Assembly (NCBI GenBank): GCA_944372445.1
Contig: CALVZE010000003.1
Coordinates: 1,816 to 65,815, forward strand
DNA length: 64,000 nt
Reading direction: 5' to 3'
Source of the DNA: an uncultured Clostridia bacterium
GTDB lineage: Bacteria > Bacillota > Clostridia > Christensenellales > UBA1242
Below the pieces are notes generated by a model. It was not told the origin of the DNA and did no database searches. It was given only the letters and a program-made list of their open reading frames with translations. Numbering within the stretch: position 1 is the stretch's first letter; every line of letters begins with the position of its first letter. The translations under genes were made by a program, and so were the position numbers. Below, piece after piece: positions 2-54,745 of this stretch.

Positions 2-418
2 GACGCTAGACTACTACGCGATTTTGAAGCGAATAAAAACAAAAACATTTCATATATATTTAAAGGGCTTATGCCGTCATCACTTGTGCCGTTCTTTGCA
101 AAAAAGTGCGGAGTGGATGAGAGTAAAAAAGTGCATGATATATTAAAGGAAGAGCGAAAAAAAATCTGCGGAACTTTAAAAAGTCTTCCGCTTTCGTTTA
201 AGTCACTTTATCCGCTTGATGCTGGCATAATCACAAGCGGTGGAGTGGCACTTGATGAGGTTAATCCAAAGACCTTTGAGAGTAAGTTTGTTAAAAATCT
301 TTATTTTATCGGCGAAGTTTTGGACATTGACGCTCTGACAGGCGGATTTAATCTTCAAATAGCGTTTTCAACGGCGTATAAATGCGGAGAAAGTTGGTGC
401 GGACACCAAACTTTTTAA
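2..418 (+). CDS. HI0933/YhiN (BaiN)-like NAD(P)/FAD-dependent oxidoreductase, C-terminal fragment (5' end outside window)
   Basis: Frame is open from the window edge. The C-terminal sequence FIGEVLDIDALTGGFNLQIAFSTAYKCG resembles the conserved C-terminus of HI0933-family flavoproteins. The last ~9 codons overlap repeat copy A. Confidence 0.6.
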   Translation, partial: DARLLRDFEANKNKNISYIFKGLMPSSLVPFFAKKCGVDESKKVHDILKEERKKICGTLKSLPLSFKSLYPLDAGIITSGGVALDEVNPKTFESKFVKNLYFIGEVLDIDALTGGFNLQIAFSTAYKCGESWCGHQTF

Positions 419-598
419 ACGCGGACACGGATATGTAAACATATCCTAACCGCTAAAAGTTCGGTTTCCCAACCCAATCCTCTTCCCTGTAGGTGATTTT
501 CAATTTGTGTTCGCCGGGCAAAGCCCTTCCCCAAACAAAATTGAAAATTAAATTAGAATATGCAAGTGTGGCGTTGTGAGAAAATAGGTTTTGATTGT
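393..598 (-). repeat. Three-hairpin structured intergenic repeat, copy A
   Basis: Alignable by eye to 12721-12915 and 18291-18495. Hairpins: TTGGTG-CGGA-CACCAA (394-409), GGATATG-TAAA-CATATCC (429-446), and a long A/T stem with a GGGC/GCCC cap (496-548). Confidence 0.8.
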
Positions 599-617
599 AG
601 ATAACTTTTATAAAAAA

Positions 618-685
618 CATCCCTAACTCTTTACTGCGAGCCATAGGCTCGCCTTCACTTTTCACTCTTCACTTTTCCTTCTTCC
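618..685 (-). repeat. GTGAAG-module repeat (GTGAAGAGTGAAAAGTGAAGG + 6-bp hairpin + CAGT...)
   Basis: The reverse complement reads GGAAAAGTGAAGAGTGAAAAGTGAAGG-CGAGCC-TAT-GGCTCG-CAGTAAAGAGTTAGGGATG. Related copies lie at 1371, 12207, 14585, 18215, 24027 and 24843. Confidence 0.75.
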
Positions 686-1630: not shown

Positions 1631-2773
1631 ATGGAAAATTATATTGATAACATAATAAAAGCGATAAGGCAAGATAGAAATGCGCAAGATAAACTTATCA
1701 ACTATCTAAAATCAACCGGCGACACTGAGTTGTTTACCGATCTTTCTTCTTCCGGGAAAATGCTACTAGAAGTTGCAGCGGGAGAAAAACTGAAATTGTT
1801 CATTTTAGAGAATTATCCAGAACTTGCGCGGGTTCAAAATAAGAAGGGCAATACTATTTTGTTTGATACAACTGAGAAGGTGCACTGTAAGGCGCTAGAA
1901 GTGGACCCAAGCCTTGCGCGTATTCAAAATGAGGACGGTGAAACATTTTTACATATATGTAATAGATTTTACATGGCGCCAAACATGGCACCAATTTTAG
2001 CCCTAGAAATTGACCCGACTCTTGCGCGGATACAGGATAAAAGAGGTAGAACGTTTGTTCATGGGTCTGATGCCGAAGTAATGCTTAAAGCGTTAGAGGT
2101 AGACCCAAGTCTTGCACGCATTCAGGATAATGACGGTCAAACATTTTTGTTTTTTTACAGTTTGTATAAACGCTCAAAAGATGTTGTACTTAAAGCATTA
2201 GAGGTGGACGCGAGCCTTGCGCAGATTAAGGATAACGACGGAGAAACATTTTTGCACAACATCACAATCATAAAATATCCGCCGGTGGCAAGCGTGGATA
2301 CTGCAATGGCTGTGCTAAAGGCATATCCAGAACTTGCAAGAATTAAAGACAGTGAAGGTAACACCTTTCTGCACTACGCGAATACTAGAAGTTTTGAAGA
2401 TGTGATTGTGGAGGCACTAAAAATCGACCCAATCCTTGCGGAAATTCAAAATAAACAAGGCGACACATTTTTGCACACCTTCTTTGACGGGCCAGACATG
2501 TTTCAACTTCCTTACACTAAGTTATTGACAGCATTAAAATCTCACCCAAATCTTGCGCGAATTCAAAATGCGGACGGCGATACGTATTTGCATTATGCTG
2601 CCAAATTTGGGCATAAAAACATCAAGGAGTTTGCCGAAAGTTTGGACCCGAGCCTTGCCGAAATTCGAAACGAAAACGGGCAAACATACCTTGATTTGTT
2701 CCCTAAAAAAAGTGTTGAAGAGTTAAAAATTTCCCTCGACGAAGTTTTGGATGAAAGAAGAAGAGAACTTTAA
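1631..2773 (+). CDS. Tandem-repeat protein, degenerate ankyrin-like repeats (about 9 units of ALEVDPSLARIQ[ND]xDGETFLH)
   Basis: ATG at 1631 follows AGGAGGGAGG. The track ORF starts at 1574 (TTG), but the RBS favours 1631. The repeated NxxGxTxLH motif with a ~37-40 aa period is ankyrin-like. Confidence 0.75.
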   Translation: MENYIDNIIKAIRQDRNAQDKLINYLKSTGDTELFTDLSSSGKMLLEVAAGEKLKLFILENYPELARVQNKKGNTILFDTTEKVHCKALEVDPSLARIQNEDGETFLHICNRFYMAPNMAPILALEIDPTLARIQDKRGRTFVHGSDAEVMLKALEVDPSLARIQDNDGQTFLFFYSLYKRSKDVVLKALEVDASLAQIKDNDGETFLHNITIIKYPPVASVDTAMAVLKAYPELARIKDSEGNTFLHYANTRSFEDVIVEALKIDPILAEIQNKQGDTFLHTFFDGPDMFQLPYTKLLTALKSHPNLARIQNADGDTYLHYAAKFGHKNIKEFAESLDPSLAEIRNENGQTYLDLFPKKSVEELKISLDEVLDERRREL

Positions 2774-2816
2774 AAATAGGCGCATTCGGTGAACAAGCGT
2801 AGAGTGGTTAAATAAA

Positions 2817-3005
2817 AAATGAAAAGTTAGCGATAGTTTTTAGATTATTCCAATTAAATTTGCTTTAAAATGTTAAAAATCAATATATGAGAGCATACGA
2901 AAGACACAATAAGAATTTAAAAAAGAATATTAAAACGTTTTAAAAATTTGTATGAAAAGATTAGGGCAACTTAATCTTTTTTATCGTTTAGGAGTGTAAT
3001 GGTGG
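2817..3005 (+). repeat. Second copy of the 1371-1470 composite repeat, split by ~100 nt of unrelated AT-rich sequence
   Basis: GAAAAGTTAGCGATAGTTTTTA (2821-2842) and GAAAAGATTAGGGCAACTTAATCTTTTTTATCGTTTAGGAGTGTAATGGTGG (2954-3005) match 1391-1470. Confidence 0.75.
2956..2982 (+). terminator. Terminator-like hairpin after the repeat-protein gene
   Basis: AAAGATTA-gggcaact-TAATCTTT plus a T-run. Duplicate of 1424-1449. Confidence 0.6.
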
Positions 3006-3100
3006 AAAAATTGTTATAAAATTTTTAATTTTCTTTGACAATATTGTATTGTTTTTGCTATTCTATTATTAGATTTAATATTTCTACAAGGACAAAGAGG

Positions 3101-4141
3101 ATGAGCGAAGAATTTAATTTAGATTTAATTGACAAAACTTTCACAAGTTACAAAAAAGGGCAAACTTTTGACGGCGTGGTGGTGCTTAAACGAGAGGACG
3201 GAGTGATTTTTAATATTGGCGGAAAAAATGACGCCTTTATTCCGTCTAGCGATTTTGATAATTTTGATGATGTTAAGATTGGTGATAGATTTTCTGTGAT
3301 TATCACAAAGCAGAAAAATGAAGAAGGGTTGATAGAGGCAAGTATGAGGCTTGCGCGCGATTTGAAGATTGCTAACCAAAATGCGCAATCTCTCCGCCTT
3401 GGAAGCAAATTTACCTTTGTTGTGACAAGCGTAAATAATGGCGGACTTCACAGCAAACTAGGCGACTACACTGTGTTTGTGCCAGCAGGCGAGGCATCAC
3501 TTAAATATGTAAGAGATTTGAAAAGTTTTGTCGGCAAGCAGTTAGAGGTAATTGTCACAGAGATTGACCACGAGAAAAAGAGCATTTTGGCAAGTGCGAA
3601 ACTTCTGCAAGAGCAGATTAAAGTGGCAACCGAAAACAACTTTTGGAACTCCATATTTATCAACAAAATTGTGACTGGCAAAGTTAAAAAGATTATGCCA
3701 TATGGTGCGTTCGTTGAAGTGGATGGAGTGGATTGTTTCCTTCACATTTCAAACATATCCTATGACAAACTTGAAAATGTCAGTGATGCCATTCATGAGG
3801 GCGAAACTTACACCTTTAAGGTGATTGGACTTGATAGAGAGAATAAAAAGGTGGAACTTTCGCTTAAAGCAACCTTGCCTGACCCGAAAATAGAGCGTAT
3901 CAAAGAATTAGAAGTTGGCGAAGTGTATGCTGGTAAAGTGGTAAAACTTTTAAGATTTGGCGCGATTGTTAAAGTGCCAAATGGTGCAACCGGACTTCTT
4001 CACATACAAAACTGCACGGAGAATAGAACAAAAAACATCTATGAACTTGTTAAAGTTGATGACGAAGTTGAGGTTGAGGTTATAAACAAAGACGAGGAAG
4101 AGGGCAAGGTTTCATTCAAACTCAAAAATATGATAAATTAA
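3101..4141 (+). CDS. rpsA: 30S ribosomal protein S1-like, four S1 domains
   Basis: ATG at 3101 follows AAGAGG. Repeated S1-domain signatures are present (GxVxxIxxxGAFVxx, e.g. GKVKKIMPYGAFVEVDG and GKVVKLLRFGAIVKV). Confidence 0.85.
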   Translation: MSEEFNLDLIDKTFTSYKKGQTFDGVVVLKREDGVIFNIGGKNDAFIPSSDFDNFDDVKIGDRFSVIITKQKNEEGLIEASMRLARDLKIANQNAQSLRLGSKFTFVVTSVNNGGLHSKLGDYTVFVPAGEASLKYVRDLKSFVGKQLEVIVTEIDHEKKSILASAKLLQEQIKVATENNFWNSIFINKIVTGKVKKIMPYGAFVEVDGVDCFLHISNISYDKLENVSDAIHEGETYTFKVIGLDRENKKVELSLKATLPDPKIERIKELEVGEVYAGKVVKLLRFGAIVKVPNGATGLLHIQNCTENRTKNIYELVKVDDEVEVEVINKDEEEGKVSFKLKNMIN

Positions 4142-4142
4142 A

Positions 4143-4215
4143 GTTTAGTGTGGACACCAACTGCACATAACGCGTGGAAAATAGAAAAATAAATTTATCT
4201 AACCGCTACCCACTT
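4143..4215 (-). repeat. Partial or degenerate copy (D) of the three-hairpin repeat
   Basis: Shares GGACACCAAC, AACGCG and CTAACCGCTA in the same order and orientation as copy A (393-455). It starts 2 nt after the S1 stop codon. Confidence 0.5.
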
Positions 4216-4277
4216 GCTTAAATTTTAACATCCCATAGTTTATATAGGTGACAAATTTAAAATTTATTCAAATTTAG

Positions 4278-4306: not shown

Positions 4307-4314
4307 GTTAATAT

Positions 4315-4400
4315 ATCCATAGAGAGTGTGCGAGGGACAGCCCCTTTGACCACACAGCAACCTACAATTTGCAAGGTGCTAATGGCTGACCGATGGTGAT
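4315..4400 (+). promoter_or_regulatory. SAM-I (S-box) riboswitch
   Basis: AGAGAGTGTGCGAGGGACAGCCCCTTTGACCACACAGCAACC...GGTGCTAATGGCTGACCGATGG matches the S-box core (GAGGGA..GGCCC..TGA..GCAACC..GGTGCTAA). It lies upstream of metK. Confidence 0.85.
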
Positions 4401-4420
4401 TTTTAATTTACTTACCATCG

Positions 4421-4447
4421 GAAACGATGGTTTTTTCTTACTCTCTT
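4421..4447 (+). terminator. Riboswitch expression-platform terminator
   Basis: ACCATCG-GAAA-CGATGGT plus TTTTTT. The left arm can alternatively pair with CGATGGT at 4391-4397, acting as an antiterminator. Confidence 0.8.
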
Positions 4448-4544: not shown

Positions 4545-5639
4545 ATGAAAAAGATTGTAACAAGCGAAAGTGTAAATATAGGTCATCCAGATAAAACCTG
4601 TGACTATATTTCTGATTGTTTTCTTGATGAGGCGTTGAAGCAAGACAAATATAGTCAAATGGCGGTGGAGTGTGCGATTAAAAACAACAAACTTTTTATC
4701 TATGGCGAGGCGACCACAAAAGCAAAATTAGATTATGACAAGATTGCTTTAAATGCCCTTAAAGAAATAGGCTATAAGGAAGAATTTGAAATTATCAAGG
4801 AAGTTAGTGTGCAGAGTGTCGAGATTAACCATGCGGTGGTTAAAGATAAGCTTTGCGCAAACGATCAAGGTATAGTTTTTGGCTATGCCACAAATGAAAC
4901 GAAAGAGTTTATGCCTCTTTCAATTATGGTAGCGCATAAGTTGATGATGAATTACGACGAATTTAGGCGGAAAGACAAAAATTTCTTTTTTGACGCAAAA
5001 AGTCAAGTTTCGGTGTTATACGAAGATGATAAACCTAAATATTTAACAAACATCTTAATAAGCGTGTCGCATAGCGAAGATATTTCAAACGAAGAGATTT
5101 GCAAAAGAATACTTGAAAATGTCGTTTTGAAAACGCTTTCGGAATATGAAAACTATTATTGCAAGGAAACAAAAATCATAATAAATCCTAGTGGTAGATT
5201 TACAATATATGGAAGCTACGGCGATTCTGGTTGTGTGGGGAGAAAGATTGTTGTAGATAGTTATGGCGGAGTTGCTCATGTTGGAGGCGGATGCTTCTCT
5301 TCTAAAAATGCAACAAAGGTGGATAGAAGCGGGGCGTATTATGCACGATATGTGGCAAAAAATATTGTGGCAAATCGCCTTGCAGAGCGTTGTGAAGTGG
5401 AAGCGGACTATGTTATAGGACTTGAAAACGCATTGAATGTCAATATTGATTGTTTTGGAACTAACAAGTTGCCAATAGAAGAGATTTATGAAATTGTCAA
5501 AAAGAATTTTGATTTTTCTCTTCAAAATATAATAAAAGAGCTTGACCTTTTAAAGCCTATTTATAAAAAGACGGCGTGCTATGGGCATTTTGGAAGAGAG
5601 GAATTTAGTTGGGAGAAGATAAAGAAGCTTGTAAAATGA
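4545..5639 (+). CDS. metK: S-adenosylmethionine synthetase (divergent, 364 aa)
   Basis: Contains GHPDK, DQGIVFGYA, GRKIVVDSYGG and KVDRSGAYYARY. RBS is AAGGAG. Confidence 0.9.
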   Translation: MKKIVTSESVNIGHPDKTCDYISDCFLDEALKQDKYSQMAVECAIKNNKLFIYGEATTKAKLDYDKIALNALKEIGYKEEFEIIKEVSVQSVEINHAVVKDKLCANDQGIVFGYATNETKEFMPLSIMVAHKLMMNYDEFRRKDKNFFFDAKSQVSVLYEDDKPKYLTNILISVSHSEDISNEEICKRILENVVLKTLSEYENYYCKETKIIINPSGRFTIYGSYGDSGCVGRKIVVDSYGGVAHVGGGCFSSKNATKVDRSGAYYARYVAKNIVANRLAERCEVEADYVIGLENALNVNIDCFGTNKLPIEEIYEIVKKNFDFSLQNIIKELDLLKPIYKKTACYGHFGREEFSWEKIKKLVK

Positions 5640-12203: not shown

Positions 12204-12206
12204 AAC

Positions 12207-12283
12207 GAAGAGTGAAGAGTGAAGGGAGATCAAAGATTTTCAGTGAAGGAAAGGCAAAGCCTTTCAGTTGTGGAAAGATTTTA
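12207..12283 (+). repeat. GTGAAG-module repeat
   Basis: GAAGAGTGAAGAGTGAAGG...CAGTGAAGG-AAAGGC-AAA-GCCTTT-CAGTTGTGGAAAGATTTTA. The stretch from GTGAAGG onward is nearly identical to 14632-14668. Confidence 0.75.
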
Positions 12284-12318: not shown

Positions 12319-12347
12319 TTGACTTTGTTTTGTAATTATGTTATATT
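12319..12347 (+). promoter_or_regulatory. Sigma-A type promoter for the small ORF
   Basis: TTGACT, 17-nt spacer, TATATT. Confidence 0.5.
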
Positions 12348-12369
12348 AATTACAAATATGGAGGATTTT

Positions 12370-12624
12370 ATGGATATTAAAGATGGTGGTTTTTCATTAA
12401 AAACCAAAGAATTGAATGATGGTCTCGATCATGTTATTTATTCTGCCTATGACAGCAGTATTATTTCAAGCATAAAAGGTGCAAAAGATGTTGCATCTGC
12501 GAAGGAATTGATAAGAAAAATGCGACAAGTAGTTGCTCAATTAAATTCTGTAAGTCATGAATTAGAAAAAACGGTGGCCCAGGCAGAAAAAAAGAAACCA
12601 ACTTTCATTATCAAAGAAAAATAA
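12370..12624 (+). CDS. Hypothetical small protein (84 aa)
   Basis: ATG at 12370 follows GGAGGA. It has its own promoter and a terminator. I recognise no motif. The track ORF starts at 12268, but that start has no RBS. Confidence 0.6.
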   Translation: MDIKDGGFSLKTKELNDGLDHVIYSAYDSSIISSIKGAKDVASAKELIRKMRQVVAQLNSVSHELEKTVAQAEKKKPTFIIKEK

Positions 12625-12626
12625 TA

Positions 12627-12651
12627 AGCATCCGCACGAGGGTGCTTTTTT
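12627..12651 (+). terminator. Rho-independent terminator
   Basis: AGCATCC-gcacga-GGGTGCT plus TTTTTT. Confidence 0.7.
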
Positions 12652-12720
12652 ATACATATTAAATAAATAAAAATTTATCCTTAACTTTCTACTGGAAATT
12701 GCAGATTTTGATTATATAAA

Positions 12721-12915
12721 TCAATTTTCAATTTTGTTTAGGGAAGGGCTTTGCCCGGCAAACAAAAATTGAAAATCACCGACAGAGAAGAGGATTGCGA
12801 AACCAACGGAGTAGCGGTTAGAAAAATTTTAATTTTTCGTGCACGCGTTTTATAATCAAAACCTATTAAGTAGCGACCAACTCGCCAATGGAATGCGAGT
12901 TGCGTTTGGTCGCTG
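12721..12915 (+). repeat. Three-hairpin structured intergenic repeat, copy B
   Basis: HP1 at 12724-12776 (ATTTTCAATTTTGTTT...AAACAAAAATTGAAAAT, cap GGGC-TTT-GCCC). Core is ATCACCGACAGAGAAGAGGATTG..GAAACCAACGGAGTAGCGGTTAG. HP2 is GAAAAAT-TTTA-ATTTTTC (12821-12838). The terminal hairpin is AGCGACCAA...TTGGTCGCT (12872-12914). Confidence 0.8.
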
Positions 12916-13042
12916 AAAGGCAAAAATAAACGTGAAAGCGATATTTTTCGAGTTTACTCGAAAATGAGCAAAAGTGCAGTTTTTGCCTTGGTCAAGCAAA
13001 ATTCGACAAAATACCGCATATAAATCATGCATAGAGGTGTGT

Positions 13043-13918: not shown

Positions 13919-14186
13919 GCTGAGATAGATGGGGAGTTAGCGGTGCCCTGTAACCTGCAATCCGCTATAGCAGGATTGAACGCTTGCCTAGGAGTAATTT
14001 GGTTGAAGATGTGCGCAAGTTAAGGGCGTTGAAATCAAGGTCTTATGCAATTGGTAACTTCGAACCATGTCAGGTCCTGACGGAAGCATCATTAAGGAGA
14101 CCTATCGATGTGCCATAAGGTAGCTTTGGTGGAGTTTTTGGCTTGCGAAACAGTCAGTCTTATTATTTCAAAGCATTCTCTCAGCT
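13919..14186 (+). ncRNA. ffs: Signal recognition particle RNA, large Bacillus type (with Alu domain)
   Basis: GGGGAGTTAGCGGTGCCCTGTAACCTGCAATCCGCTATAGCAGG closely matches the B. subtilis scRNA Alu domain. The S-domain GTCAGGTCCTGACGGAAGCA is present. The 5' GCTGAGA pairs with the 3' TCTCAGC. Length is ~268 nt. Confidence 0.9.
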
Positions 14187-14534: not shown

Positions 14535-14584
14535 ATTTTCCTCCTTTTTGTAGTGTTTGCAAAAAACGACAAAATATTCTATAA

Positions 14585-14672
14585 AGTGAAGAGTTAGGGA
14601 TGGATATAGAAGTAAGAGTGAAGAGTGAAAAGTGAAGGAAAGGCAAAGCCTTTCAGTTGTGGAAAGATTCAG
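14585..14672 (+). repeat. GTGAAG-module repeat
   Basis: GTGAAGAGTTAGGGATG...GTGAAGAGTGAAAAGTGAAGG-AAAGGC-AAA-GCCTTT-CAGTTGTGGAAAGATTCAG. Confidence 0.75.
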
Positions 14673-16932: not shown

Positions 16933-18164
16933 AGAAGAGAGATAAAAAGTTGCGAAAAAAGCGTGGTGTTTTCATAATTGTTTTTATCGTCTTCATATCT
17001 TCCTTTTTTGGCAGTTACACAATTGACGGATATATTATAAACACCCCTTATGTTTTGGCGGAAAGCGATAAAGAGAGCGTAGAAGAAGAACTTGAAATTG
17101 AGACTGAAAAGCAACTTGAAGACCTTGATTTTTCCGATTTAGAAACATATATAGACAGCCTCGAAAGTTCTGTCAAAGATATGTTTTCAGGTGGCTTTGT
17201 CAGCAAGGTGGAAAGTTTAATTAATGGTGAATATATCACGGGCGACAGTTTCCTTAGCTCTGTTTTCTCTCTTCTCTGGGATGGACTACTTGATTTTCTA
17301 CCGATAATTGCAAGCATTATTGCCGTTTCCATACTAGGCGGAATGGTGGGTAATTTAAAACCAAACACCGGCGGAAAGTCAATTGGCAATATCATTCACT
17401 TTGTGACCTATGGTATCGTCATTGTCTTTTTAGGCACGACGCTTGTAGAACTTATCGCCTTGACAAGCAAGACCTTAACAAGTCTAAAAAGTCTTATGGA
17501 CATGATTTTTCCTGTGCTTTTAACACTGCTTACTGCGGTTGGCGGAAGCGTGTCGGTAGGTCTATATCAGCCTGCCATAGCGCTACTTGGTAACATATTT
17601 ATTTCGCTTATCACTTATTTTCTTATGCCATTATTTATCTTTTCAATAGTGTTCTCCATTGTTGGAAATCTCTCAAATAATGTGAAGCTAGATAAGTTTG
17701 TAGCTTTTCTTCAAGGCACTTTCAAGTGGTCGATTGGCTTACTTTTTACGCTGTTTTTAGGGTTTATAACCATTCAAGGCATATCAGCAAGTGCTGTCGA
17801 TGGACTTTCAATTAGAACGGCAAAATACACCATTAAAAGCTATGTTCCGATTGTAGGCGGATATGTTAGCGACGGACTTTCTATCATCATGGCGTCAAGT
17901 ATGCTGATTAAAAACGCTGTGGGAACGGCTGGGCTTCTTTTAATACTATTTAGCGTGATTTCGCCTGTTATAAGTTTGATACTTTTCATGCTTTCACTTA
18001 GGTTTATGGCAGGCATAATTGAGCCTGTTGGCGACAGAAAAACAGCGAATTTTGTTTCAGATATATCAAAGAGTATGAGCATGCTTATAGCGTTAATTGT
18101 GGCAGTTTCTTTTATGTATATGGTGATGACAGGGCTGATAATGTGCAGTTGCAATTTGATTTGA
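16929..18164 (+). CDS. spoIIIAE: Stage III sporulation protein AE
   Basis: 411-aa polytopic membrane protein with an N-terminal signal/TM segment. Its start overlaps the spoIIIAD stop. Confidence 0.9.
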   Translation: MKKRDKKLRKKRGVFIIVFIVFISSFFGSYTIDGYIINTPYVLAESDKESVEEELEIETEKQLEDLDFSDLETYIDSLESSVKDMFSGGFVSKVESLINGEYITGDSFLSSVFSLLWDGLLDFLPIIASIIAVSILGGMVGNLKPNTGGKSIGNIIHFVTYGIVIVFLGTTLVELIALTSKTLTSLKSLMDMIFPVLLTLLTAVGGSVSVGLYQPAIALLGNIFISLITYFLMPLFIFSIVFSIVGNLSNNVKLDKFVAFLQGTFKWSIGLLFTLFLGFITIQGISASAVDGLSIRTAKYTIKSYVPIVGGYVSDGLSIIMASSMLIKNAVGTAGLLLILFSVISPVISLILFMLSLRFMAGIIEPVGDRKTANFVSDISKSMSMLIALIVAVSFMYMVMTGLIMCSCNLI

Positions 18165-18214: not shown

Positions 18215-18270
18215 AGTTGTGGATGTGAAGGAAAACCTTGCGGTTTAGTGAAGAGTTGTGGAAGATTTTA
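18215..18270 (+). repeat. GTGAAG-module repeat
   Basis: GTTGTGGATGTGAAGG-AAAACC-TTGC-GGTTT-AGTGAAGAGTTGTGGAAGATTTTA. Confidence 0.7.
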
Positions 18271-18290
18271 TACTGGATTATTATTTTTCT

Positions 18291-18495
18291 AACCAAAACC
18301 ACTTTTCTCACAACGCTATACTTACGCACTCTTAAAACAATTTTTGATTTTGCGAGGGGAAGGACTTTGTCCGGCGAGCATAAATCAAAAATCACAAACA
18401 GGGAAGAGGATTGGGATGGGAAACCAACGGAGTAGCGGTTAGGAAAATTTTAATTTTCCGTGTCCGCGTTAAGCGGAGTTGGTGTCCGCACCAAC
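18291..18495 (+). repeat. Three-hairpin structured intergenic repeat, copy C (inside the spoIIIA operon)
   Basis: 5' segment is CCAAAACCACTTTTCTCACAACGCTATACTT. HP1 is TTTTTGATTTTGC...GCATAAATCAAAAA with cap GGAC-TTT-GTCC (18341-18391). HP2 is GGAAAAT-TTTA-ATTTTCC (18442-18459). HP3 is GTTGGTG-TCCG-CACCAAC (18478-18495). Confidence 0.8.
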
Positions 18496-18508
18496 AAAAA
18501 GGAGTTTT

Positions 18509-19012
18509 ATGAGCGGAATATCTGCGTGGCTATTATCTATCACAGGCGTAATTCTTTTATCTGTGCTATGCGAATTTGTTTTGCCAGAAGGACAGATAAA
18601 TAGATATACGCGCGTAATTTTTTCCTTTGTGACTATTTTTGTTATCATCTCTCCGCTTCCATCACTTTTAAACAAAGAAATAGATTTTTCCTTTCCAAAT
18701 TATGATTATACTCTTCAAGAGGACTACCTATATGAGATAAACTTAAATAAGTTAGACGCCATTCAATCCGATTTAAAAAAAGAGATTGAAGAAGCGGGTA
18801 TTTATAATGTTAAAATTTCAATAAGTGCCAATGCTTATAGCGAAAATTTAGAGATTTACTCTATATATGTCGAACTTTGCGATATTTCATTTTCTAGCGA
18901 TTTTGAAAATAAAAATAAAAGTGAAGCAAGGCGCAAGATAGAAGAGATAATTTCCTATATGCCAGCACTCAAAGATGTTCCAATTTCTTATGATGACACA
19001 AAGATTTTGTGA
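18509..19012 (+). CDS. spoIIIAF: Stage III sporulation protein AF
   Basis: ATG at 18509 follows AAAGGAG. Two N-terminal TM segments. Operon position fits. Confidence 0.75.
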   Translation: MSGISAWLLSITGVILLSVLCEFVLPEGQINRYTRVIFSFVTIFVIISPLPSLLNKEIDFSFPNYDYTLQEDYLYEINLNKLDAIQSDLKKEIEEAGIYNVKISISANAYSENLEIYSIYVELCDISFSSDFENKNKSEARRKIEEIISYMPALKDVPISYDDTKIL

Positions 19013-54507: not shown

Positions 54508-54745
54508 GTAAAAACGATGATGAAAGACTAGTAGGCTTGTGGTTTTTCTTACAGAGAGTCCTTTTTGCTGAGATAGGGCAGAAAAAGCAGGTTGAATTCA
54601 CTTTCTAGTTGCACCTTGAAAGATTTTCGAGTAGGGGTTGTCGCGTGGGCAGGCGTAATTGTCATAATGAGGTGCTTTTTAAGCATGAAGTTAGGTGGTA
54701 ACACGATTGATAATCGTCCTAATATTTTAGGGCGATTTTTTTTAA
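54508..54745 (+). promoter_or_regulatory. T-box riboswitch leader, Phe specifier (UUC)
   Basis: AGAGAG element, candidate specifier GAATTCA (UUC followed by A), T-box sequence AAGTTAGGTGGTAACACG (54688-54705), and terminator AATCGTCCTA-atatt-TTAGGGCGATT plus a T-run. Confidence 0.85.

What the first reader, a model, noticed from the sequence alone, without database searches (positions are those of the whole stretch)
12721..12915. Multi-copy ~200-nt three-hairpin intergenic element with compensatory stem changes (393-598 -, 12721-12915 +, 18291-18495 +, partial 4143-4215 -)
Three full copies share the same layout: HP1, then a conserved core, then HP2, then GTG(T/C)(C/A)CGCG, then HP3. Copies A and C also share a 5' segment, CAAAACC..TTTCTCACAACGC.A.ACTT. 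In copy B a related AATCAAAACCTATT instead lies 3' of HP2.
- HP1 is a 13-16 bp A/T stem capped by GG(G/A)AGG(G/A)CTTTG(C/T)CCGGC.
- The conserved core is ATCAC..ACAG(G/A)GAAGAGGATTG..GAAACC.AC....TAGCGGTTAG.
- HP2 is a 7-bp stem with an invariant TTTA loop.
- HP3 is GTTGGTG-TCCG-CACCAAC, or in copy B a longer AGCGACCAA...TTGGTCGCT.

Where copies differ inside stems, both arms change together:
- HP1 stem: TTTTCAATTTT/AAAATTGAAAA (A, B) versus TTTTGATTTT/AAATCAAAA (C).
- HP1 cap: GGGC/GCCC (A, B) versus GGAC/GTCC (C).
- HP2: GGATATG/CATATCC (A), GGAAAAT/ATTTTCC (C) and GAAAAAT/ATTTTTC (B).

This points to selection on secondary structure. That fits a structured ncRNA family or a REP/MITE-like element recognised as a DNA hairpin. 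On the strand where copy A reads forward, the core exposes CU-rich CCUCUUCCC and CCCUUCCCC stretches that could pair with SD sequences. I recognise no known family.
Basis: seen in the sequence. Interest (0 to 1): 0.7.

Follow-up and report, generated by a model that had tools for sequence, protein, structure and literature searches.

The report
Uncatalogued multi-copy structured RNA-like element
The repeat is real: a roughly 165-base element that folds into two long hairpins joined by a purine-rich linker, scattered through the genomes of uncultured gut Clostridia (even inside 16S rRNA genes and their leaders), matching no known RNA family and kept intact by selection.

Summary
The window has three copies of one element (391-555 -, 12717-12851 + truncated, 18333-18497 +) and a remnant (4142-4216 -).

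**Spread.** The same element occurs in 12 uncultured Clostridia MAGs and in metagenome contigs, which also hold very divergent relatives.

**Fold.** It is not three hairpins. HP1 is followed by a single-stranded, Shine-Dalgarno-like purine linker (GGAAGAGGA). Then comes one long irregular hairpin built from TTGGG/CCCAG, AGAAACCGAAC/GTTTGGTGTCT, GCGG/CCGC and HP2. In copy B it belongs to a different repeat.

**Covariation.**
- 24 copies: 96.8% of cells paired, 20 of 44 pairs changed on both sides, 0 of 500 shuffles as good.
- 44 members: 37 of 44 pairs changed on both sides.

**Known families.** No match in Rfam, plasmids, phages or viral contigs.

**Context.**
- Copies are present or absent at orthologous sites in related genomes.
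- They lie in either orientation.
- They sit just upstream of 16S, inside 16S helix 6, inside a T-box leader, next to tRNAs and inside operons.

**Selection.** One orthologous copy shows 0-1 change in 152 nt, against 6-13% in the flanking genes.

**Reading.** The best reading is a transcribed, selected RNA module that relocates by an unknown route. Its function is untested.

The parts
12717..12851 (+). Copy B: core of the element ('R1'), truncated at the 3' end. HP1 is 12724-12776 and the purine-rich linker is 12777-12794. The 5' strand of the 3' domain is 12795-12813, GCGG is 12814-17, and HP2 is 12821-12838 (GAAAAAT-TTTA-ATTTTTC). ACGC at 12843-46 pairs with GCGG with one mismatch. The 3' strand of the long-range helix and the tail are missing.
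   Evidence: Sequence; CM hit of 109.8 bits; alignments.
12852..12867 (+). ATAATCAAAACCTATT. It is nearly identical to a block of the 5' extension of copy A (TACAATCAAAACCTATT) and marks the break point of copy B.
12867..12990 (+). Not part of R1. This is a copy of a second structured repeat family ('R2').
   Evidence: nhmmer finds 6 further copies in L023, L003 (x2), L016, L007 and L004.
18333..18497 (+). Copy C: complete core. HP1 is 18340-18392 and the linker is 18393-18410. The 3' domain is 18411-18494, built from GCGG 18435-38, HP2 18442-59, CCGC 18464-67, the 3' strand of the long-range helix at 18478-87, and the closing pairs at 18490-94. It lies inside the spoIIIA operon between spoIIIAE (stop at 18164) and spoIIIAF (ATG at 18510), in the same orientation as those genes.
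   Evidence: CM hit of 188.6 bits; structure; gene context.
18219..18332 (+). 5' extension of copy C (the 'long form'). It holds one GTGAAGG-hairpin-AGTGAAGAG unit, then TTGTGG-N17-TATTAT (18256-18284), then CAAAACC..CTCACAACGCTATACTT (18307-18323), then CTCTTAAAAC.
   Evidence: Aligned with 12 other long-form copies. The promoter reading is not supported by the consensus scan.
391..555 (-). Copy A: complete core. HP1 is 548-496, the linker is 495-478 and the 3' domain is 477-394. It is antisense to both flanking genes. Its tail overlaps the last codons of the converging flavoprotein-like ORF, which ends at 418.
   Evidence: CM hit of 178.8 bits; inverted repeats 396-415/455-474 and 496-506/538-548; orthologues in L002 and L012.
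556..676 (-). 5' extension of copy A: AGTGAAG units with a hairpin (676-646), then AGAGTTAGGGATG..TTTATAAAAGTTATCTACAATCAAAACC (630-587), then CTCACAACGCCACACTT (580-564).
   Evidence: Conserved in the orthologues with 2-3 changes in 76-77 nt.
4142..4216 (-). Copy D: degenerate remnant of the 3' domain only (TAGCGGTTAG .. CCACGCG .. GTTGGTGTCCACAC). It lies between an S1-domain gene and the SAM riboswitch of metK.
   Evidence: Sequence; nhmmer E 1.2e-6, profile positions 98-169. Not found by the full CM.

Best explanation
R1 is an uncatalogued family of interspersed elements of about 165 nt, or about 280 nt with an optional 5' module.

**Fold.** One strand folds into two long irregular hairpins. 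The first is HP1. The second is a rod of about 85 nt closed by TTGGG/CCCAG. Between them lies an exposed, Shine-Dalgarno-like purine tract (GGAAGAGGA and variants).

**Proposed mechanism.** I propose that the functional form is RNA.
- Copies co-oriented with a host transcript (16S leader, 16S helix 6, T-box leader, operon spacers, 5' UTRs) are made as part of that transcript.
- Copies antisense to their neighbours mostly carry their own conserved 5' module, which would drive or start their transcription.
- The RNA would act as a self-contained module. The two stable rods present the purine tract and the invariant UAGCGGUUAG/CGUGYCCGCGU internal loop to a partner. The partner could be the 30S anti-SD or an RNA-binding protein.
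- This would stabilise, insulate or mark for processing the RNA next to it.
- New copies arise now and then at non-coding sites by an unidentified copy-and-paste or recombination route.

**Shown:** the family, the fold, its strand bias, its polymorphic presence, its contexts, and locus-specific purifying selection.

**Inferred:** transcription, the RNA-level role, the partner and the mobility mechanism.
For: **Fold**
- 24 MAFFT-aligned copies: 96.8% of cells paired against 87.5% in shuffles. 20 of 44 pairs changed on both sides, with 0 of 500 shuffles as high. Slid controls pair 35-53% of cells.
- 44 CM-aligned members, including divergent ones: 94.3% of cells paired, and 37 of 44 pairs changed on both sides.
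- G.U pairs outnumber A.C pairs 33 to 4 on the strand given.
- Arm lengths vary while the junctions stay fixed. HP2 is expanded in L004 and L016, there is an extra domain of about 100 nt in L006 and L017, and the L045 type has extra hairpins.

**Selection**
- The orthologous copy A has 0-1 substitutions in 152 nt across three genomes. The flanking plsC and flavoprotein genes differ by 5.7-13.4%.
- Paralogues within one genome differ far more than that.

**Transcribed contexts, in sense orientation**
- Directly upstream of 16S in L005, L008, L011, L013, L015 and L023, and in the very divergent L041.
- Inside 16S helix 6 in L013 and L018.
- Between stem I and the antiterminator of a T-box in L017.
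- 3 nt before a tRNA-Leu.
- Before rpsL and after it.
- Inside the spoIIIA operon.

**5' module and orientation**
- With the module: 7 antisense copies and 3 sense copies.
- Without it: 2 antisense and 11 sense. Fisher p = 0.013.

**Purine tract**
- The purine tract stays unpaired and SD-like in all lineages.
Against: - There are no expression data of any kind.
- The consensus scan finds no sigma-70 promoter in the 5' modules of copies A and C.
- Most G.U cells come from two or three columns shared by subfamilies, so the strand call rests on few independent events.
- Orientation was judged from crude ORF calls.
- In copy C the minimum-energy fold uses HP3 rather than the long-range helix, and the antisense strand has the better z-score: -4.0 against -2.5.
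- Copy A is strongly conserved, antisense, and has no obvious cis target.
- No partner protein, cleavage site or ligand has been identified.
Confidence: 0.4

Rival explanations
1. R1 is a selfish, non-autonomous DNA element of the hairpin type, like REP/BIME with a RAYT or an IS200/IS605-derived PATE. A trans-acting HUH transposase would recognise the hairpins on single-stranded DNA. The conserved fold would be the transposase substrate, and RNA would play no part.
For: - Copies are present or absent at orthologous sites. The spoIIIAE-AF spacer is 8, 29 and 85 nt in L050, L048 and L047, against 345 nt in the window. The same spacer in L019 is filled in the opposite orientation.
- An L049 copy sits where the window, L047 and L048 are empty.
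- Both orientations occur.
- There is no ORF, no terminal inverted repeat and no clear target duplication, as in IS200/IS605.
- The structure is specific to one strand.
- Subfamilies are shared across species.
Against: - The fold is far larger and more elaborate than known transposase hairpins. It has a long-range helix and variable inserted domains.
- HP1 and the 3' domain are unrelated in sequence, unlike LE and RE hairpins.
- An orthologous copy is at least 10 times more conserved than the neighbouring genes. Selfish spread does not predict that for a fixed copy.
- A rough TnpA probe finds nothing in 478 kb.
- There are no near-identical paralogues that would signal recent bursts.
Confidence: 0.2
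2. R1 copies are a paralogous family of trans-acting small RNA genes, for example a sponge for CsrA, Hfq or another protein that binds GGA or purine-rich motifs, or for 30S subunits. The embedded copies would be processed out of host transcripts.
For: - The exposed linker and internal loops carry several GGA or GGGA motifs.
- The neighbouring AGTGAAGG-hairpin arrays repeat a purine motif between hairpins.
- An antisense copy with its own 5' module is strongly conserved.
- The multi-copy organisation resembles Qrr- or LhrC-type families (this comparison is from general knowledge).
Against: - There is no terminator at the 3' end in most copies.
- The 3' end abuts start codons, 16S or tRNAs, which suggests read-through into them.
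- The promoter is unverified.
- The copy number is unusually high for an sRNA family: 3 per 64 kb here.
Confidence: 0.15
3. R1 is the scaffold of a transposon guide RNA, such as a TnpB or IscB omega-RNA or a bridge/seek RNA, surviving as orphan copies. The sequence just 3' of the tail would be the guide.
For: - The 3' boundary is sharp and coincides with the insertion boundary (CACCAAC|AAAAAGGAG).
- The size and degree of structure fit omega-RNAs.
- Orphan, multi-copy scaffolds and IS605-derived non-autonomous elements are described for that system (PMC10055086, seen; not read in full).
Against: - No nuclease or recombinase ORF lies next to any of more than 45 copies.
- Rfam gives no match, including its IS605-orfB and HEARO models.
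- Conservation of a fixed antisense copy is not explained.
Confidence: 0.08
4. R1 is a self-processing RNA, either a new ribozyme or a dedicated RNase substrate, that cuts at its own 3' edge and so releases the downstream RNA (16S, tRNA, mRNA) with a defined 5' end.
For: - The tail ends 9-14 nt before AGAGTTTG of 16S. From general knowledge of E. coli and B. subtilis 16S, that is within a few nt of the expected mature 5' end.
- It also ends 3 nt before a tRNA-Leu, about 10 nt before a T-box antiterminator, and 12-18 nt before start codons.
- Insertion in 16S helix 6 and in a T-box leader would be harmless if the element were removed.
Against: - There is no similarity to any ribozyme family in Rfam.
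- The same close abutment is seen for antisense copies at stop codons and at tRNA 3' ends. It may therefore only reflect short spacers.
Confidence: 0.05

Closest known systems
BOX elements of Streptococcus pneumoniae, and similar modular intergenic repeats such as ERIC/IRU and Bacillus cereus bcr1 (comparison from general knowledge)
   Same: - Multi-copy, intergenic and 100-300 nt long.
- No ORF.
- Modular, with units that vary in number.
- Predicted stable single-strand structure.
- Found in either orientation and co-transcribed with neighbours.
- Mobilising enzyme unknown.
   Different: - No sequence similarity was detected, although those elements were not compared directly here.
- R1 has a long-range helix, an invariant internal loop and deep divergent lineages with inserted domains.
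- R1 sits in rRNA leaders, 16S helix 6 and a T-box leader.
- An orthologous copy is under strong purifying selection.
IS200/IS605-derived non-autonomous elements (PATEs), REP/BIME-RAYT systems and TnpB omega-RNAs
   Same: - No terminal inverted repeats and no target duplication.
- Single-strand hairpins.
- Sharp 3' boundary next to variable flank.
- Clostridia are rich in IS605-family elements and IStrons.
   Different: - No TnpA, TnpB or RAYT was seen near any copy.
- The two hairpin domains are unrelated to each other.
- No conserved target tetranucleotide or pentanucleotide was found.
- The structure is much larger than a transposase hairpin.
Intervening sequences and expansion segments of bacterial rRNA (for example 16S V1 inserts of Clostridium paradoxum, 23S IVS of Salmonella; from general knowledge)
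   Same: Two R1 copies are inserts at the tip of an extended 16S helix 6, flanked by a long stem of the kind RNase III cuts.
   Different: The same element also occurs at dozens of non-rRNA sites. In this clade helix 6 hosts other, unrelated inserts as well, so the site is permissive and does not define the element.
STAB-SD 5' mRNA stabilisers of Bacillus (cryIIIA; from general knowledge)
   Same: An SD-like purine tract that does not start translation lies upstream of genes, next to stable structure. It could bind the 30S subunit and block 5'-3' decay.
   Different: STAB-SD is a short linear motif, not a 165-nt conserved fold. No experimental link was made here.

Membership tests
Any Rfam 15 family (including T-box, IS605-orfB, HEARO, group I/II introns and small ribozymes) | Covariance-model score at or above the family's gathering threshold | tested here: not met
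   - The whole window at gathering threshold gives only SRP RNA, one T-box at 54508 and one SAM riboswitch.
- Copy B at E<=10 gives only noise, best 22.9 bits against a threshold of 70.
- 13 loci with divergent members give only rRNA and tRNA.
MITE (classical miniature inverted-repeat transposable element) | Terminal inverted repeats | tested here: not met
   Inverted-repeat search over copies A and C with flanks finds only the internal helices, not matching termini.
MITE (classical miniature inverted-repeat transposable element) | Target-site duplication flanking the insertion | tested here: inconclusive
   Filled and empty sites were compared at three loci. The 3' edge is sharp. The 5' side is a composite with other repeats, so no duplication could be read.
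IS200/IS605-type PATE or REP-RAYT element | Related subterminal hairpins at both ends, recognised by one HUH transposase | tested here: not met
   HP1 and the 3' domain share no sequence.
IS200/IS605-type PATE or REP-RAYT element | A cognate TnpA or RAYT gene in the same genome | tested here: inconclusive
   A rough tblastn probe with a consensus-like TnpA written from memory finds nothing in 478 kb of held sequence. Whole genomes were not available.
TnpB/IscB omega-RNA or IS110 bridge RNA | Scaffold encoded at the end of, or next to, the nuclease or recombinase gene in at least some copies | tested here: not met
   No same-strand long ORF runs into or abuts any copy in 51 loci.
Structured ncRNA family (generic) | Statistically supported covariation for a common fold | tested here: met
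Structured ncRNA family (generic) | A transcript of the folded strand | not testable with these tools
   No expression data are available. The consensus promoter scan was negative.
rRNA intervening sequence | Insert at the tip of a conserved rRNA helix, flanked by an extended stem | tested here: met
   Met for L013 153-313 and L018 5851-6013 only. The window copies are not in rRNA.

The most novel reading that the evidence does not exclude
R1 is a new class of functional structured RNA specific to a clade of uncultured, spore-forming gut Clostridia.
- It would be built into the pre-16S leader as its ancestral home and copied to dozens of other transcripts.
- It would work as a cis module that recruits the 30S anti-SD, a protein or an RNase, or that cleaves itself.
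- It would thereby define or protect the 5' end of the RNA downstream.
- Together with the AGTGAAGG-hairpin arrays and the R2 repeat, it would form a previously unseen system of RNA punctuation.
Probability: 0.25. Interest if true: 0.8.

Novelty: new variant of a known kind. Interest (0 to 1): 0.62.

Why it matters
- **If it is an RNA module.** It would be a rare case of a large, covariation-supported bacterial RNA fold that is both multi-copy and embedded in rRNA precursors, rRNA expansion segments, riboswitch leaders and operons. That would bear on how Firmicutes mature, stabilise or insulate RNAs.
- **If it is selfish DNA.** It would be an unusual structured mobile element with no recognisable enzyme.
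- **Practical consequences either way.** It adds 160-200 nt to the V1 region of 16S in some species. It fragments MAG assemblies at rRNA loci. It can also be mistaken for small ORFs: 61-70 aa ORFs overlap all three copies.

Tried and rejected
- **Rfam.** Searches at gathering and permissive thresholds gave no family.
- **Other collections.** blastn against plasmids and phages and a pattern scan of viral contigs found nothing.
- **Sigma-70 promoter in the 5' module.** A TAYAAT box sits at a fixed position in about 8 of 13 long forms, but the consensus scan finds no promoter. The question is left open.
- **HP3 as a terminator.** On the antisense strand of copy A, HP3 plus a T-run scores as terminator-like. 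Most antisense copies lack the T-run, so this is not general.
- **Pseudoknot between core and tail.** This resolved into a simple closing helix.
- **K-turn in HP1.** Conserved GA/GA is present, but the strand order and loop sizes do not fit the motif (read from the sequence by eye).
- **tRNA-like origin.** UAGCGGUUAG matches tRNA-Glu D-loops (a literature string search returned only tRNA-fragment papers). However, covariation pairs GCGG with CCGC and no T-arm exists. ARAGORN was run only on four related loci, where it called flanking tRNAs and nothing inside the elements.
- **Group I intron or IStron.** The element is too small and has no P/Q/R/S-like core or Rfam hit.
- **Coding potential.** The 5-nt indels and variable arm lengths argue against it.
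- **Literature.** Five searches found no description. The first 200 of 408 supplementary files of a microbiome RNA-motif catalogue held no match.
- **IS200-like TnpA.** A rough probe found no hit.

Full report
**1. Checking the observation**

- Diagnostic blocks occur only there. GGRAGGRCTTTGYCCGGC is found 3 times against 0.08 expected, ACAGRGAAGAGGATTG 3 times and TAGCGGTTAG 4 times.
- All copies are intergenic.

The window is core chromosome of a spore-forming, low-GC (36.8%) Clostridia-type organism. Its gene order is plsX-rnc-smc-ftsY, SRP RNA, spoIIIAA-AH, nusB, xseA, proS, rpsB, tsf. All genes are on the + strand and no transposase is evident.

**2. Relatives elsewhere**

- An exact-pattern scan of one genome per species found the element in 18 loci from 12 MAGs, all titled 'uncultured Clostridia bacterium' and apparently gut-derived to judge by sample labels such as Lapin (rabbit). 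It also gave one chance hit in Legionella.
- A second pattern on metagenome contigs found more copies and, importantly, very divergent relatives.
- Profile and covariance-model searches of the held loci raised the count to more than 45 copies, often several per 8 kb.
- Nothing similar exists in plasmids, phages or viral contigs.
- No Rfam family matches either the window copies or the divergent ones.

**3. The real anatomy**

Alignment of 24 distinct full copies, with RNAalifold, gives the following layout.
- **HP1.** A 14-bp A/T-rich stem, an internal loop with conserved GA/GA, and a 4-bp cap.
- **Linker.** About 19 nt, unpaired: ATCAC..ACAGGGAAGAGGA.
- **3' domain.** One long irregular hairpin made of:
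  - TTGGG/CCCAG closing pairs;
  - AGAAACC(G)AAC paired with GTT(T)GGTGTCT;
  - an internal region that is either Watson-Crick paired (AACTTTT/AAAAGTT) or a symmetric purine loop (CGGAGT on both strands);
  - GCGG/CCGC;
  - the invariant loop UUAG/CGUGY;
  - HP2.

Other copies end GTCTGTCCCAG or GCCTCCCCAG. The tail co-varies with the core: AGA..TCT against GGA..TCC, TTGGG/CCCAG against CAAGG/CCTTA and CTAGG/CCTAA.

**4. Covariation statistics**

| Measure | 24 MAFFT-aligned copies | 44 CM-aligned members |
|---|---|---|
| Cells forming standard pairs | 96.8% (shuffles 87.5 +/- 0.5, 0/500) | 94.3% (shuffles 77.2) |
| Pairs changed on both sides | 20 of 44 (shuffles 11.4, 0/500) | 37 of 44 |
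| Covariation score | 0.292 (shuffles 0.124) | 0.353 (shuffles 0.108, 0/500) |
| Slid controls, cells paired | 35-53% | 36-54% |

- The 44-member alignment is fitted to the model, which favours the structure.
- G.U pairs outnumber A.C pairs 33 to 4 on the strand as given. The fold therefore belongs to one strand, the + strand for copies B and C.
- Most of those G.U cells come from two or three columns, which weakens that count.
- Arm lengths vary while junctions are fixed. HP2 is expanded to 60-80 nt in L004 and L016. A homologous extra domain of about 100 nt follows HP1 in L006 and L017. The L045-type lineage has extra hairpins and a different 5' domain, yet keeps GG.GGAAAGGGAG, TTGGGAGGAAAACC..GGTGTTACCCCAA and TAGCGGTTAG..CGTGCCCGCGT, with compensated pairs.

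**5. Where copies sit**

*In sense orientation to a host transcript:*
- Directly upstream of 16S rRNA, 9-14 nt before AGAGTTTG. This holds in L005, L008, L011, L013, L015 and L023, and in the highly divergent L041.
- In L011 the 16S gene stands alone. R1 lies between the RNase III-type leader/trailer stem and the 16S 5' end.
- Inside 16S helix 6 (V1) in L013 and L018.
- Between stem I and the antiterminator of a T-box in L017, and likewise in L033.
- 3 nt before a tRNA-Leu in L043.
- Before rpsL and between rpsL and the next gene in L004.
- Inside the spoIIIA operon (copy C).

*In antisense orientation:*
- The tail abuts or overlaps the stop codon of a converging gene. This applies to copy A, L012, L019, L007, L026, L027, L042 and L021.
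- In L034 and L045 the tail lies 2 nt from the CCA end of a converging tRNA-Glu.
- One copy is antisense within an rRNA leader (L020).

**6. Presence or absence at orthologous sites**

- The spoIIIAE-spoIIIAF spacer is 8 nt in L050 (81% identical AE protein), 29 nt in L048 (92%) and 85 nt in L047 (95%). It is 345 nt in the window because of copy C and its 5' module.
- The same spacer holds an R1 copy in the opposite orientation in L019. In L049 it holds no R1 but a 544-nt array of AGTGAAGG-plus-hairpin units.
- The 3' edge of the insertion is the end of the tail: CACCAAC|AAAAAGGAG, where the native SD begins.
- An L049 copy lies upstream of spoIIIAA, where the window, L047 and L048 are empty.
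- Copy B lies in a spacer of about 770 nt that is about 110 nt in L048. That spacer also contains a small ORF cassette and a different repeat.
- No terminal inverted repeats were found and no readable target duplication.

**7. Selection on a fixed copy**

Copy A is orthologous in the window, L002 and L012.
- Across these three genomes the 152 aligned core positions carry 0-1 substitutions, plus one 5-nt replacement in the closing region.
- The 5' module has 2-3 changes in 76-77 nt.
- The flanking plsC and flavoprotein coding sequences differ by 5.7-13.4%.
- Paralogues in the same genome are much more different. This is therefore locus-specific purifying selection, not homogenisation among copies.

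**8. The 5' module**

- About half the copies carry a conserved extension. It runs: AGTGAAG-hairpin unit(s), AGAGTTGTGGAAG, TTTATAAAAGT, TAYAATCAAAACC, CACAACGCC.CACTT, CTCTAAATC.
- It is found mostly on copies antisense to their neighbours: 7 antisense and 3 sense with it, against 2 antisense and 11 sense without it, Fisher p = 0.013. Orientation here rests on crude ORF calls.
- That pattern is what one expects if the element must be transcribed and brings its own start when it cannot ride on a host transcript. However, the consensus scan finds no sigma-70 promoter in copies A or C.

**9. Interpretation**

*What the data establish:*
- a new, covariation-supported, one-strand fold;
- multi-copy status and relocation between related genomes;
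- tolerance inside essential transcripts;
- selection on at least one fixed copy.

*What I infer:* the functional form is RNA, acting as a self-contained module. The two rods would display an SD-like purine tract and an invariant internal loop. The module would influence the stability, processing or insulation of adjacent RNA.

*Alternatives, with my confidence in each:*
- a hairpin-type selfish DNA element moved by an unseen HUH transposase (0.2);
- a trans-acting sRNA or sponge family (0.15);
- orphan guide-RNA scaffolds (0.08);
- a self-processing RNA (0.05).

None can be excluded without expression data and complete genomes.

**10. Comparison with known systems**

- The closest analogues in behaviour are modular structured repeats such as pneumococcal BOX, ERIC and bcr1. 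For the two 16S copies, the closest analogues are rRNA intervening sequences.
- R1 fails the tests for a classical MITE, for any Rfam family, and for IS200/IS605-type ends. It shows no linked nuclease gene.
- I class it as a new variant of a known kind (interspersed structured repeats). There is a fair chance, about 0.25, that it is a new functional RNA class.

Noticed in passing
L049 11300-11790; window 646-676 (-), 12205-12270 (+), 14580-14660 (+), 18225-18262 (+): These are arrays of a constant 7-8-nt motif, AGTGAAG(G/A). Each motif is followed by a different perfect 16-18-nt hairpin, with a period of about 24 nt. L049 has 9 units forward, then 4 as CCTTCACT on the other strand, filling the spoIIIAE-AF spacer. 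In the window the motif occurs 15 times against 4.2 expected and clusters in spacers, often next to R1. Unit number varies between orthologous loci (window, L002 and L012). The nature of these arrays is unknown.
   Followed up: partly
window 12867-12990 (+): This is a second structured repeat family ('R2', about 125 nt). It consists of a GCGACC..GGTCGC hairpin, then TTTTCGAG-loop-CTCGAAAA, then GAGCAAAAGTGCAGTTTTT. Six more copies occur in L023, L003 (x2), L016, L007 and L004, with apparently compensated stems, often adjacent to R1.
   Followed up: partly
L008, L020, L023, L041 (16S genes, first 120-320 nt); L013, L018: 16S helix 6 (V1) in this clade is greatly expanded. GGCGGACGGGTGAGTAA lies at position 126 to 317 from AGAGTTTG. 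Apart from R1, a different conserved insert (GTTTGAGA-hairpin-TCTCTCAAGGC..AAGTGCT) occupies the same site in L008, L020 and L023.
   Followed up: partly
L011 (16S at reverse-complement positions 2440-3997): This 16S gene stands alone. It is followed about 150 nt later by an intrinsic terminator and then a promoter and a protein gene, not by 23S. The rRNA operon therefore appears to be split.
   Followed up: no
window 12319-12624 (+): A small gene cassette lies between ftsY and the sigma-factor gene. It has a good promoter-like site (TTGACT-N17-TATATT at 12319-12347), an ORF of about 85 aa from about 12370 and its own terminator at 12626-12651. It is absent from the orthologous spacer in L048.
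   Followed up: no
window 2-418 (+): The flavoprotein-like (HI0933/BaiN-type, by eye) ORF reads about 25 nt into the antisense tail of copy A before its stop codon. Its last residues are therefore encoded by the element. The same is true in L002 and L012.
   Followed up: partly
L034 6384-6470 and L045 7620-7702: Two different tRNA-Glu genes (ttc and ctc) lie on one contig. Each has a divergent R1-type copy converging on it, with an identical junction (..CTACCA TA TTGGGGTAACAC..). This is either a duplicated block or site-specific placement at the tRNA-Glu 3' end.
   Followed up: no
L024 about 5470-5580: A tandem array of about 15 TGAAAAA heptamers lies just upstream of an R1-like core. It recalls the AGTGAAG/AGTGAAAAG units upstream of long-form copies.
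   Followed up: no
window 4314-4433, 13920-14184, 54508-54724: Ordinary Rfam hits: a SAM riboswitch before metK, the large SRP RNA, and a T-box leader before a likely pheS (assigned by eye).
   Followed up: no
L013 455-616 against L023 289-451: The two 16S-leader copies have an identical 3' domain but HP1 of different subfamilies (GAACTGCGTTC cap against GGGCTTTGCCC cap). This suggests the modules are exchanged by recombination.
   Followed up: no
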